64,000 nt of DNA from Peptococcaceae bacterium. GTDB taxonomy: Bacteria > Bacillota > Peptococcia > Peptococcales > Peptococcaceae. Position 1 is the stretch's first letter. Every line of letters starts with the position of its first letter. This document shows, piece after piece, positions 37,901 through 43,592 of the stretch. The stretch lies in assembly GCA_019420345.1 (NCBI GenBank), contig JAHZHI010000055.1, forward strand, positions 17,871 through 81,870. Direction: 5' to 3'. The position numbers and the translations under genes were made by a program. The notes under the pieces were generated by a model. The model saw only the letters and a program-made list of their open reading frames with translations, searched no databases and was not told where the DNA came from.

Positions 37901-38458
37901 CTACACCCCTCCACGGATTTCCAAAAACTGGCGAATCAGTGTCACGCACATCACCGCCCACTGTACGCCAAAAAAGAGATGCCATAGGCCGAACCGCTGC
38001 CATTTACTGTCAGCAAGCGCATCATTCAAATGGTCAATGAGCATTTGTTCGTTTTCCGGCGCCAGCGGCGTCAGACCAAGCCAACCGTCATAGCGGCAGA
38101 TGACCGTCGCCGGCGGCAATTGTGCTTCCTGCAGGCTCTCCCGAATGGCCTGTGCCAGCATGTCATAGGTCTCGGGGTCCTGACGAAAACCGCCGCCGCG
38201 AAAAACAAACCAGCGGCGGCGTCCAAACGCCTGCTGGATCAGCAGACAGCCTACGAAGACAAAGCAGATGAGCGCCGTCCAGCGAGCGCCAGCGGTCCAT
38301 CCGCCTTGCCACAGCCATTCAAACACCACGATCTCTGCTGCCAGAAAGGTCATTGGCAGCGCCAGCGGCACCACCACAGGTTTTCGGCGCAGAAGCGGCA
38401 GCACCAGCCCGGTCAAAAGAAGCACCAGTGCCAGCGTCCACAACCCTTCGGCATTCAT
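37901..38458 (-). CDS. membrane protein, hypothetical
   Basis: 185 aa with 3 N-terminal TM helices and 1 C-terminal TM helix. It starts 4 nt downstream of the obg stop. Confidence 0.5.
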   Translation of the reverse strand: MNAEGLWTLALVLLLTGLVLPLLRRKPVVVPLALPMTFLAAEIVVFEWLWQGGWTAGARWTALICFVFVGCLLIQQAFGRRRWFVFRGGGFRQDPETYDMLAQAIRESLQEAQLPPATVICRYDGWLGLTPLAPENEQMLIDHLNDALADSKWQRFGLWHLFFGVQWAVMCVTLIRQFLEIRGGV

Positions 38459-38461
38459 GAC

Positions 38462-41567
<3,106 letters not shown>

Positions 41568-41592
41568 GATTGTTCTCTTTCTTATAAATAAC

Positions 41593-41619
41593 AAAAAGGG
41601 ATGACCGAGCGGTCATCCC
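41593..41619 (-). terminator. rho-independent terminator after rpmA
   Basis: gggatgacc-gagc-ggtcatccc with TTTTT on the minus strand. Confidence 0.75.
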
Positions 41620-42563: not shown

Positions 42564-42668
42564 TTTTTCACTCCTCCCTGAGAATACTCGCTGCGGCTAG
42601 GTAGCAGCAGGGCTGCGTTTTCCAACCCGACGCAGGCGGTTTCGATCTGGGAAAACACCCATATCCGA
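42564..42668 (-). promoter_or_regulatory. structured 5' leader of rplU (L21-leader-like)
   Basis: A leader of about 105 nt with hairpins (ctgcgt..acgcag, gctgc..gcagc) lies between a consensus promoter and the RBS. Firmicutes are known to carry an L21 autoregulatory leader at this position. Its fold was not verified. Confidence 0.45.
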
Positions 42669-42674
42669 ATATCA

Positions 42675-42703
42675 ATTATACAGAATTGGCAGAGCGCCGT
42701 CAA
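42675..42703 (-). promoter_or_regulatory. sigma-A promoter of rplU-prp-rpmA
   Basis: On the minus strand: TTGACG (42698-42703), a 17-nt spacer, TATAAT (42675-42680). Confidence 0.7.
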
Positions 42704-42758: not shown

Positions 42759-42792
42759 AAAAAAATCGGAAGACGGCAAGCGTCTTCCGATT
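42759..42792 (-). terminator. rho-independent terminator of the TIR gene
   Basis: Perfect 12-bp stem aatcggaagacg / cgtcttccgatt, with a 7-T tract on the minus strand. Confidence 0.85.
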
Positions 42793-42808
42793 GAATGATG
42801 GCTGCGGC

Positions 42809-43420
42809 TTAAAGCATCTTCGATACGTAGGCCACACGGTCGCCAGCCTCTTCGGTGAACGGTACCTGGCCAGCTTCCTGATCCTTAAGTACATCGAGGA
42901 TGACTTCGCAGAGGTTGTATTTGGTGTTGACATGGTCGACACGGTTGTTGTATTTGTCGCGGTATTTTTTCATACGTTCCGCTTCGGCTTCGCTGAGGTA
43001 TTCATCCTTGAACTGCCCATAAAGTTTGCCGTTGACATATTTTTCAATGTCGAGATTGTCCACCTCATCAAGATCAACGACGACCACTGGCAAAGCAGCG
43101 CGTTCATCGGTGACAGCATGACTCTTGGTGTATGCCACTTCCTTGGCACACTGCGCGGAACTCATGGATTCTTCACTGAGATAGAACAGCACACCTTTGC
43201 AGTTAAGGTTGGCAATGGCGCCGAAGATGGTGCTGTTGTAGCCATCCCCGGTCATATTGGATTCAACGTCGATCCAGAGATTTTTGCCAGCTTCCTGCAG
43301 CGCGATGACATCGGCATACACATTGGCGCCGTCACGGGTGGAATAGCTGACGTAAATATATGGCTGGCTGCAATCGCAGGCCTTGATTTTTGCTGCTAAT
43401 TCTTTAATGGTTTCTGTCAC
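42809..43420 (-). CDS. TIR-domain protein (stand-alone), with an uncharacterised C-terminal extension of about 90 aa
   Basis: GTG start with a GAGAGGAAG RBS. The sequence PYIYVSYSTRDGANVYADVIALQEAGKNLWID...CKGVLFYLSEESMSSAQCAKEV follows the TIR pattern: beta-A [FIV]SY, W-x-D, and beta-C plus S..S..C..E with a candidate catalytic Glu. Confidence 0.65.
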   Translation of the reverse strand: MTETIKELAAKIKACDCSQPYIYVSYSTRDGANVYADVIALQEAGKNLWIDVESNMTGDGYNSTIFGAIANLNCKGVLFYLSEESMSSAQCAKEVAYTKSHAVTDERAALPVVVVDLDEVDNLDIEKYVNGKLYGQFKDEYLSEAEAERMKKYRDKYNNRVDHVNTKYNLCEVILDVLKDQEAGQVPFTEEAGDRVAYVSKML

Positions 43421-43466
43421 GTTATCAACTTCCTCTCGATTCTAAACAACAACAGTTAATGGAAAA

Positions 43467-43500
43467 ATTATAACACAACCGGTCGGTGAATGAAAGACAG
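43467..43500 (-). promoter_or_regulatory. candidate extended -10 promoter for the TIR gene
   Basis: The minus strand reads TGTTATAAT (TATAAT at 43467-43472) with a weak -35 tttcat 17 nt upstream. Confidence 0.4.
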
Positions 43501-43539: not shown

Positions 43540-43578
43540 AAAAAAAGCGGCACAAAACATGCACGGTTTTGCGCCGCT
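43540..43578 (-). terminator. rho-independent terminator after proC
   Basis: Stem agcggcacaaaac / gttttgcgccgct (12 of 13 bp) with a T-tract on the minus strand. Confidence 0.7.
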
Positions 43579-43592
43579 CTCAAGTAACGCGA

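What the first reader, a model, noticed from the sequence alone, without database searches (positions are those of the whole stretch)
42759..43500. Orphan stand-alone TIR-domain gene between the L21 operon and proC
**Seen in the sequence**
- A 203-aa ORF has its own extended -10 promoter candidate and a perfect 12-bp-stem terminator.
- It sits between two strongly terminated housekeeping units: proC/nitrilase/rnj and rplU-prp-rpmA.
- Residues about 20-110 read as a TIR fold: YIYVSYSTRD, LQEAGKNLWID, and CKGVLFYLSEESMSSAQCAKEV with a Glu in the position of the NADase catalytic Glu.
- The C-terminal region of about 90 aa is charged and helical and not recognisable.
- GC is about 55 % by hand count, so the gene is compositionally native.

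**Established knowledge**
- Bacterial TIR proteins act as NAD+-consuming or signal-generating components of antiphage systems (for example Thoeris ThsB, or TIR fusions). They usually sit beside an effector or sensor partner.

**Inference**
- No ThsA-like (SIR2/SLOG/Macro), STING, CBASS or other partner is within the flanking 10 kb.
- It is therefore one of three things: a single-gene TIR system with a novel C-terminal sensor, a ThsB-type producer whose effector is encoded elsewhere, or a housekeeping NAD-related function.
Basis: partly seen in the sequence, partly recalled or inferred. Interest (0 to 1): 0.6.

Follow-up and report, generated by a model that had tools for sequence, protein, structure and literature searches.

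The report
Clade-fixed stand-alone TIR enzyme gene
This is a real stand-alone TIR ("immune-type", NAD-cleaving) gene, but unlike the usual mobile anti-phage TIR genes it has been inherited vertically, under housekeeping-level selection, by every sampled species of one gut Peptococcaceae clade, and it has no known partner gene.

Summary
The 203-aa ORF (42809-43420, minus strand) is real. It has its own conserved extended -10 promoter and a GTG start, and strong terminators lie on both sides. It scores above Pfam's TIR_2 cut-off. AlphaFold gives one compact domain (pLDDT 92) whose best structural matches are plant NLR TIR domains.

The "unrecognisable C-terminal 90 aa" is not a sensor. It is the helical alpha-D insertion plus the last strand and helix of an extended TIR fold. 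Glu94 sits at the catalytic Glu position and is invariant, but the Trp of the usual WxxxE motif is replaced by an invariant Gln.

The surprise is evolutionary:
- The family occurs only in one clade of gut Peptococcaceae: 12/12 species of the window's genus, Peptococcus simiae and one more genus.
- Presence maps as a single gain on an Obg tree, and the gene is single-copy.
- dN/dS is about 0.08, as low as proC and rplU.
- Its flanks were rearranged several times while the gene was kept.

No ThsA-type effector (SIR2_2, STALD, Macro_2) exists anywhere in the genome, and no neighbour is a defence gene. My best reading is a self-contained, assembly-gated NAD-cleaving TIR fixed in a core genome, with trigger and role unknown. 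It is an uncharacterised member of a known kind.

The parts
42809..43420 (-). TIR-only protein gene, 203 aa, GTG start. One extended TIR domain: N-terminal helix 2-11, beta-A 21-25, beta-C 74-81, alpha-C with Glu94, beta-D 112-116, alpha-D insertion 125-181, beta-E 182-186, alpha-E 192-202.
   Evidence: ORF and translation. Pfam TIR_2 37.6 bits. AF2 pLDDT 92.4, pTM 0.90. Foldseek top hits are plant TIR domains. dN/dS about 0.08 in this frame.
43467..43475 (-). Extended -10 promoter element TGTTATAAT of the TIR gene. The -35 is weak.
   Evidence: Read. Conserved as TG-n-TATAAT in 11 genus-mates.
43429..43437 (-). Ribosome-binding site GAGAGGAAG, 8 nt before the GTG start.
   Evidence: Conserved in genus-mates.
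42764..42792 (-). Intrinsic terminator of the TIR gene: 12-bp perfect stem, 5-nt loop, T-run.
   Evidence: Folds at -18.2 kcal/mol, z -5.1. A hairpin is present at this place in most genus-mates.
43540..43580 (-). Intrinsic terminator of the upstream rnj-nitrilase-proC unit. It insulates the TIR gene from read-through.
   Evidence: Read. Folds at -23.5 kcal/mol, z -5.3.
42675..42703 (-). Near-consensus sigma-70-type promoter (TTGACG-17-TATAAT) of the downstream rplU-prp-rpmA operon. It shows that rplU is a separate unit from the TIR gene.
   Evidence: 11 of 12 matches. Sequence.

Best explanation
The gene encodes a self-contained TIR-only enzyme.

**Shown**
- It is a single, compact, extended TIR domain with no extra sensor or effector domain.
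- It is transcribed from its own conserved extended -10 promoter and starts at a conserved weak (GTG/TTG) start codon.
- It was gained once at the base of a gut Peptococcaceae clade and has been kept as a single-copy core gene under strong purifying selection.

**Inferred**
- Like SpbK, AbTir, Cat1 or TIR-SAVED, it cleaves NAD+ with Glu94 as the catalytic residue.
- It does so only when several copies assemble head-to-tail, so that the BB-loop of one subunit completes the active site of the next.
- Low, tightly insulated expression keeps it below the assembly threshold.
- A trigger that clusters the protein then causes NAD+ depletion and/or release of ADPR-type products. The trigger is most plausibly a phage structural protein or a stress-induced ligand that binds the family-specific alpha-D surface (invariant KYxxKYNN, 152-159).
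- The protein is thus sensor and effector in one. It has become fixed in the chromosome rather than riding on a mobile defence island.
For: **TIR identity**
- Pfam TIR_2 is above the cut-off.
- The AF2 model is one domain, pLDDT 92.4 and pTM 0.90.
- 19 PDB matches have E <= 1e-3 and all are TIR domains: 18 plant NLR TIRs and TLR15. SARM1, AbTir, SPARTA and BtpA follow more weakly.

**Active-site residues**
- S25, Y26, D51, S82, S88 and E94 are invariant in the family and in the wider clade of N-terminal TIR modules.
- E94 aligns with the alpha-C Glu of Cat1 and TLR TIRs.

**No partner**
- Neighbours are housekeeping genes with no PADLOC match beyond chance level.
- This is the only TIR_2 in the genome.
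- SIR2_2, STALD and Macro_2 are absent.

**Autonomous unit**
- The promoter, RBS, start codon and terminators are present and conserved.

**Functional constraint**
- Median omega is 0.077, against proC 0.097, rplU 0.095 and prp 0.179.

**Relatives and precedent**
- The nearest relatives (a drop from 325 to 115 bits) are more than 300 TIR-X fusions with variable C-termini such as MrcB_N and Sel1. That is the architecture of one-protein sensor-effectors.
- Precedent for assembly-gated single-gene TIR NADases: SpbK (PMC12847820).
Against: - The distribution is the opposite of a typical defence gene. The gene is in 12/12 species of the genus and in the two sister genera. It shows one gain, a tree congruent with Obg, and no mobile-element context.
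- The Trp of the WxxxE motif used by many active TIR NADases is an invariant Gln (Q90) here, and Pro/Ala in the nearest relatives. Chemistry or substrate may therefore differ.
- There is no biochemical, expression or phage data.
- Many gut TIR domains with the catalytic Glu were not assignable as NADases in the only large survey (447 of 3,072 assigned; PMC9092222).
- The protein is acidic (pI 4.66) and has no obvious ligand-sensing module, so the trigger is pure inference.
Confidence: 0.45

Rival explanations
1. It is a Thoeris-like signal generator. The TIR makes a nucleotide second messenger (a cADPR isomer, His-ADPR or similar), and this messenger activates an effector of an unknown type encoded elsewhere in the chromosome.
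For: - Size and TIR-only architecture resemble ThsB. There are weak PADLOC ThsB hits (E about 2e-3).
- The catalytic Glu is retained.
- A clade-fixed gene could have a clade-fixed unlinked partner.
Against: - No SIR2_2, STALD or Macro_2 protein exists anywhere in the 99.7 %-complete genome.
- No conserved neighbour survives across the lineages. Flanks seen are proC, ribD, rpsR or an SDR gene upstream, and rplU, TetR or pirin downstream.
- The ThsB models score below the generic TIR hit.
Confidence: 0.2
2. It is a domesticated, non-immune TIR. The protein has a lineage-specific physiological role, for example regulated NAD+ turnover, or ADPR/cADPR-type signalling in stress, dormancy or growth control. 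That role would explain why it behaves like a housekeeping gene.
For: - One gain, then retention in every adequately complete genome of the clade.
- Omega is as low as for proC and rplU, and the protein diverges more slowly than proC in every pair.
- It is embedded among ribosomal and biosynthetic operons in all lineages, including rpsF-ssb-rpsR | TIR | rplU in L007.
- Composition is native.
Against: - No housekeeping role is known for any bacterial TIR.
- The gene is absent from five of the eight genera of the same family, so it is not generally required.
- Linkage to rplU-obg is broken in G004 and in Peptococcus simiae, so there is no functional operon link.
- Its closest relatives have the architecture of conflict-system proteins.
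Confidence: 0.2
3. It is a catalytically silent TIR. It acts as a protein-protein adaptor, or as a host-directed Tcp-like factor of a gut commensal that interferes with TLR/MyD88 signalling.
For: - The organisms are gut-associated: human and animal gut MAGs and Peptococcus simiae.
- The best sequence-level PDB hit of the family profile is an animal TLR TIR.
- The Trp of WxxxE is missing.
Against: - There is no signal peptide or secretion-system context.
- The catalytic-position Glu and the beta-A/beta-B active-site residues are invariant, which a pure scaffold would not need.
- The TLR hits are weak (E 0.005-0.012).
Confidence: 0.08

Closest known systems
SpbK (YddK) of Bacillus subtilis ICEBs1, a single-gene TIR NADase abortive-infection protein (PMC12847820, PMC8880864)
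   Same: - One gene with no partner.
- The TIR is both engine and output.
- The activity of this kind of protein depends on head-to-tail TIR assembly triggered by a phage protein. This is the mechanism I infer here.
   Different: - SpbK lies on a mobile element. Its TIR clustering is driven by binding to the phage portal protein YonE.
- The present protein is TIR only. It is chromosomal, clade-core and vertically inherited.
- No SpbK chain appeared among the sequence or fold matches.
Thoeris ThsB (TIR-only infection sensor and signal producer)
   Same: - About 200-aa TIR-only protein with a catalytic Glu.
- Weak PADLOC ThsB hits.
   Different: - No adjacent ThsA.
- No SIR2_2, STALD or Macro_2 anywhere in the genome.
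- Distribution is not patchy.
Plant TIR domains and TIR-only proteins (RPS4, RPP1, RUN1, L6, Roq1)
   Same: - Best structural matches: E 5e-6 to 1e-3, 186-200 aligned columns, target-normalised TM about 0.6.
- They share a long multi-helix alpha-D region between beta-D and beta-E.
   Different: - Only 8-17 % sequence identity.
- Plant TIRs have the WxxxE Trp and signal through EDS1.
- There is no evidence of direct descent.
Assembly-activated TIR effectors: Cat1 (CRISPR-associated TIR), TIR-SAVED, AbTir, SARM1 TIR
   Same: - Cat1 is the best sequence-profile hit in the PDB (E 1.4e-4). Its alpha-C Glu aligns with E94.
- The top PADLOC hit is a TIR-SAVED model.
   Different: - Those proteins carry CARF, SAVED, coiled-coil or ARM/SAM domains that control assembly. 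This protein has none.
N-terminal TIR modules of TIR-X fusion proteins, 300-1700 aa, uncharacterised
   Same: - Nearest relatives by profile: 80-115 bits for the 150 best listed; 341 of the 2,495 hits have E <= 1e-10.
- They share the N-terminal helix plus 'CD..KPY.FVSYS..D', 'N(L/I)WID' and 'S..S..SAPVCAEL' motifs, and the same roughly 200-aa module length.
   Different: - They continue into variable C-terminal domains (MrcB_N, Sel1 repeats, unknown).
- The present family stops at the end of the TIR module.
- It also has its own invariant motifs: STRD, GDGYNSTIF, SAQxxKE, KYxxKYNN.

Membership tests
TIR domain superfamily (Pfam TIR_2, clan STIR) | Profile match above the curated cut-off | tested here: met
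   TIR_2 scores 37.6 bits against a cut-off of 28, residues 22-140. Homologues carry PF13676.
TIR domain superfamily (Pfam TIR_2, clan STIR) | Flavodoxin-like five-stranded beta/alpha fold that superposes on solved TIR domains | tested here: met
   AF2 pLDDT 92.4 with strands beta-A to beta-E. All 19 PDB matches with E <= 1e-3 are TIR domains.
Enzymatic (NAD+-cleaving) TIR domains | Glutamate at the catalytic alpha-C position | tested here: met
   E94 is invariant in the family and in the wider clade. It aligns with the Glu of 'CQYEL' in TLR15/2 and 'WCWDEL' in Cat1.
Enzymatic (NAD+-cleaving) TIR domains | Trp four residues before the catalytic Glu (WxxxE). It is present in many but not all active TIRs. 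| tested here: not met
   The position is an invariant Gln (Q90), and Pro/Ala/Ser in the nearest relatives.
Enzymatic (NAD+-cleaving) TIR domains | Measured E-dependent NAD+ consumption or ADPR/cADPR-isomer production | not testable with these tools
   Needs purified protein or cell lysate assays.
Thoeris | ThsB-type TIR encoded next to a ThsA effector (SIR2-SLOG or Macro-TM) | tested here: not met
   Neighbours are proC and rplU. Flanking genes have no meaningful PADLOC hit.
Thoeris | A ThsA-type effector somewhere in the genome | tested here: not met
   SIR2_2, STALD and Macro_2 each give 0 matches at E <= 1 in the 99.7 %-complete genome.
Thoeris | Match to ThsB family models | tested here: inconclusive
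   PDLC00436 and PDLC00419 give E about 2e-3 and 15.7-15.8 bits. This is weaker than the generic TIR-SAVED hit.
SpbK-like single-gene TIR abortive infection | One-gene system in which the TIR NADase is the effector | tested here: inconclusive
   The single-gene status is met. NADase activity and phage defence are untested.
SpbK-like single-gene TIR abortive infection | Sequence or structural kinship to SpbK | tested here: not met
   No SpbK chain among the PDB sequence hits or the top 50 fold hits.
Mobile or accessory defence-island gene (general property of bacterial TIR defence genes) | Patchy distribution, mobile-element or defence-island context | tested here: not met
   Present in 12/12 genus-mates, 3/4 of genus g6 and 1/1 of g8. 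One gain on the Obg tree, with a congruent TIR tree. Neighbours are housekeeping genes.
CBASS TIR-SAVED effectors | SAVED (or STING) nucleotide-sensor domain fused to the TIR | tested here: not met
   The protein ends with alpha-E of the TIR fold. The PADLOC hit covers only the TIR part, profile positions 16-163 of 404.

The most novel reading that the evidence does not exclude
A TIR-only enzyme has been domesticated into the core genome of a gut Peptococcaceae clade, in one of two forms:
- The first bacterial TIR with a physiological, non-defence role, such as regulated NAD+ turnover or an ADPR-type second messenger in growth or stress control.
- A 'germline-fixed' innate immune sensor whose effector is unlinked and of an undescribed type.

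Its altered active site (QxxxE instead of WxxxE) and the invariant KYxxKYNN alpha-D motif would then mark a new product or ligand specificity.
Probability: 0.25. Interest if true: 0.7.

Novelty: new member of a known kind. Interest (0 to 1): 0.42.

Why it matters
- Bacterial TIR genes are almost always described as accessory, mobile anti-phage or virulence genes.
- This is a small, clean counter-example: a minimal TIR-only protein kept by every species of a clade at housekeeping-level constraint, with no partner.
- If it is an active NADase, it would be a compact model of how a bare TIR domain is kept silent and then switched on.
- It would also add an unrecognised source of NAD-derived metabolites in the gut.
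- If it is not defensive, it would widen the known biology of prokaryotic TIR domains.
- Peptococcus simiae is cultured and carries a homologue, so the question can be tested at the bench.

Tried and rejected
1. **C-terminal sensor domain: rejected.** The AF2 model is one domain. beta-E and alpha-E lie at the extreme C-terminus, and the module length is shared with the N-terminal TIRs of the fusion relatives.
2. **Canonical Thoeris: rejected.** No SIR2_2, STALD or Macro_2 in the genome.
3. **Functional operon link to rplU-prp-rpmA-obg: considered, then rejected.**
   - It was considered because the adjacency survives at 55-57 % identity with different upstream flanks.
   - A terminator and a near-consensus promoter separate the two units.
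   - TetR+MCRA is inserted between them in three species.
   - In the complete genome G004 the TIR lies 680 kb from obg.
   - Peptococcus simiae has rpsR-TIR-pirin, and a second species of genus g6 (G024) has SDR-TIR-pirin.
4. **Recent horizontal acquisition: rejected.** GC and GC3 are native, the gene shows a single gain, and the trees are congruent.
5. **Shadow ORF on the plus strand (42791-43399, 202 aa): rejected.** Selection acts on the minus-strand frame.
6. **Rfam:** no RNA family around the gene, at gathering thresholds or at E <= 1.
7. **Phage relatives:** BFVD gave only a giant-virus TIR/WD40 protein.
9. **Gut-TIR survey:** the supplements of PMC9092222 hold no Peptococcaceae entry or matching motif.
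10. **Earlier scan notes:** no look-alike by sequence.
11. **The fast-evolving 185-aa membrane protein after obg as a possible partner:** no support. It was detected only downstream of obg in genus g1 and evolves much faster than the TIR.

Full report
**1. What is there**

The ORF lies at 42809-43420 on the minus strand. It is 203 aa long and starts with GTG, 8 nt after the RBS GAGAGGAAG.

Transcription signals:
- An extended -10 box TGTTATAAT lies at 43467-43475, with only a weak -35. The consensus scanner needs two hexamers and did not list it.
- In an alignment of the upstream 130 nt from 11 species of the same genus, the TG-n-TATAAT box, the RBS and a non-ATG start (GTG in 10, TTG in 1) are conserved while the rest diverges.
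- Upstream, the rnj-nitrilase-proC unit ends in a hairpin plus T-run at 43540-43580 (-23.5 kcal/mol, z -5.3).
- Downstream, the gene ends in a perfect 12-bp-stem terminator at 42764-42792 (-18.2 kcal/mol, z -5.1).
- A near-consensus promoter for rplU follows at 42675-42703.

Pfam confirms the neighbours: RNase J, CN_hydrolase and P5C reductase on one side, and L21, Prp, L27, a MutS_V protein and Obg on the other. None has a meaningful PADLOC match.

GC of the ORF is 49.2 %, against 47.6 % for the genome. GC3 is 0.59, like the neighbours.

**2. It is a TIR, and the whole protein is the TIR**

- Pfam TIR_2 scores 37.6 bits against a cut-off of 28.
- PADLOC gives only generic TIR hits: TIR-SAVED at 5.7e-6 and ThsB at about 2e-3. 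NCBIfam gives nothing.
- AlphaFold2 on a 19-sequence family alignment gives one compact domain, pLDDT 92.4 and pTM 0.90.
- Its elements are an N-terminal helix (2-11), beta-A 21-25, alpha-A, a short beta-B in the LWID segment (residues 48-51), alpha-B, beta-C 74-81, alpha-C 83-97, beta-D 112-116, three alpha-D helices (125-181), beta-E 182-186 and alpha-E 192-202.
- In Foldseek against the PDB, 18 of the 19 hits with E <= 1e-3 are plant NLR TIR domains (RPS4, RPP1, RUN1, Roq1, L6, SNC1) and the other is chicken TLR15. The plant hits align over 186-200 columns.
- Other TLRs, SPARTA TIR-APAZ, AbTir, SARM1 and BtpA follow more weakly.

The 'unrecognisable C-terminal 90 aa' is thus the long alpha-D insertion plus the last strand and helix of the fold. 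It is not a separate sensor.

**3. Active-site residues**

- Family-invariant residues (19 sequences, 47-98 % identity) include S25-Y26-S27-T28-R29, W49-I50-D51, G58/G60-Y61-N62, C74, S82, S85, S88-A89-Q90, K93-E94 and K152-Y153..K156-Y157-N158-N159.
- When the family is aligned with the N-terminal TIR modules of its nearest relatives, S25, Y26, V34, L41, N47, W49, I50, D51, C74, S82, S88 and E94 remain invariant.
- Profile-to-PDB alignments put E94 on the Glu of 'CQYEL' (TLR15/2) and 'WCWDEL' (Cat1). This is the catalytic Glu position of enzymatic TIRs.
- The Trp four residues upstream (WxxxE) is an invariant Gln here, and Pro/Ala in the relatives.
- The protein is acidic, pI 4.66.

**4. Distribution and evolution: the unexpected part**

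- Only about 40 clusters in 5.8 billion proteins belong to the family. All are about 200-212 aa when complete, and those that carry a source name (two clusters) are called Peptococcaceae MAGs.
- Named genome records are uncultured gut Peptococcaceae (human and animal gut MAGs) and Peptococcus simiae.
- Among the 38 species genomes of the family, the gene is present in 12/12 of the window's genus. It is in 3/4 of genus g6 (which includes the P. simiae isolate M108); the one miss is an 82 %-complete MAG. It is also in the single g8 genome, where it is split over contig ends.
- It is absent from the other five genera and from neighbouring families.
- On an Obg tree, g1+g6+g8 form one clade (SH-aLRT 97), and TIR presence needs a single change. 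The TIR tree is broadly congruent.
- Median pairwise dN/dS is 0.077. The values for proC, rplU and prp are 0.097, 0.095 and 0.179.
- In every genus-mate where proC still flanks the gene, its dN is lower than that of proC.
- It is the only TIR_2 gene in the genome.

**5. Synteny**

- Within the genus the order is nitrilase-proC-TIR-rplU-prp. TetR+MCRA is inserted before rplU in three species, and one divergent species has ribD-TIR-rplU.
- A metagenomic relative at 55 % identity has rpsF-ssb-rpsR-TIR-rplU.
- In genus g6, P. simiae M108 has ssb-rpsR-TIR-pirin and another species (G024) has SDR-TIR-pirin. rplU is elsewhere in both.
- In the complete genome G004, the TIR stays with proC while obg is 680 kb away.

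The gene has therefore been retained through at least four flank rearrangements, and no neighbour is constant. The rplU adjacency is inheritance, not an operon.

**6. Relatives and partners**

- An exhaustive profile search collapses the family to one to three representatives (up to 326 bits). Scores then drop to 115 bits or less for 2,495 hits, 341 of them at E <= 1e-10. Most listed hits are N-terminal TIR modules of 300-1700-aa proteins.
- Their C-termini vary (MrcB_N, Sel1 repeats, unknown). None belongs to a named PADLOC system beyond generic TIR hits.
- The present family is this TIR module on its own.
- The ThsA hallmarks SIR2_2, STALD and Macro_2 are absent from the 99.7 %-complete genome.
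- BFVD holds no phage relative.

**7. Interpretation**

I am confident of the following:
- It is a genuine, expressed-looking, selectively maintained TIR-only protein.
- It is not Thoeris.
- It is not a TIR-plus-sensor fusion.
- It is not a mobile island gene.

The rest is inferred by analogy with assembly-gated TIR NADases (SpbK, PMC12847820; Cat1, AbTir, TIR-SAVED). On this reading it cleaves NAD+ through Glu94 once copies assemble. The weak start codon and insulated promoter would keep it sub-threshold until a trigger clusters it. I give this self-contained reading 0.45.

Rivals:
- A signal producer with an unlinked, unknown effector: 0.2.
- A domesticated non-immune NAD-linked role: 0.2.
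- A silent adaptor or host-directed Tcp-like protein: 0.08.

The QxxxE active site and the lack of any assay keep all of these open. In the one large gut survey, only 447 of 3,072 TIR domains could be assigned as NADases (PMC9092222).

**8. Novelty and score**

Stand-alone bacterial TIR proteins are known, so this is a new member of a known kind. What is unusual is its core-genome behaviour and its minimal architecture. Interest is moderate (0.42). It would rise to about 0.7 if a non-defence role or a new effector type were shown.

Noticed in passing
window 42636-42666 (-), in the rplU 5' leader: A roughly 30-nt stretch, GGATATGGGTGTTTTCCCAGATCGAAACCGC, between the rplU promoter and its RBS. 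It is conserved in at least three divergent genus-mates (G001, G008, G011) while the flanking DNA differs. No Rfam family, including the L21 leader, matches at E <= 1. It may be an undescribed variant of a ribosomal-protein leader.
   Followed up: partly
window 39738-41594 (-): A 618-aa protein with only a C-terminal MutS domain V (Pfam 429-600), lying between rpmA and obg. Found at this place in g1, g6 and g8 and, more distantly, in g2 and g4 (a short fragment in g5). It matches an earlier first-reader note on a membrane-anchored MutS_V ATPase.
   Followed up: partly
L001 8690-11335; L012-L014; L045 7132-12609: A TetR regulator plus an MCRA (PF06100, fatty-acid hydratase-type) gene are inserted between the TIR gene and rplU in three species of the genus. 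In the complete genome G004, further ORFs of about 210-360 aa (not annotated here) lie between TetR and MCRA, and rplU-obg lies 680 kb away.
   Followed up: partly
window 43418-43420 and homologous loci: The TIR gene keeps a non-ATG start (GTG in 10 species, TTG in 1 of 11). This is consistent with deliberately low translation of a potentially toxic enzyme.
   Followed up: partly
L007 3734-6064: In the metagenomic relative with rpsF-ssb-rpsR-TIR-rplU, a NUDIX hydrolase and a nicotinate phosphoribosyltransferase (NAD salvage) lie 2-4 kb upstream of the TIR gene. Probably coincidence, but relevant to NAD turnover.
   Followed up: no
window 37901-38458 (-): A 185-aa protein with a hydrophobic N-terminal part and no Pfam family, directly after obg. 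It was detected only downstream of obg in the window's genus and evolves fast (40-95 % identity where Obg is 85-99 %).
   Followed up: partly
G006 (L019) versus other genus-mates: One species classed in the same genus has a TIR only 56 % identical to the window's, although its Obg is 85 % identical. Its upstream flank is the ribD operon instead of proC. This means either accelerated evolution or an old split within the genus.
   Followed up: partly
G031:C16:9137-10411 (L073): The obg gene of one relative (genus g3) has an in-frame TGA. It could be an assembly error or a pseudogene, and is unrelated to the finding.
   Followed up: no
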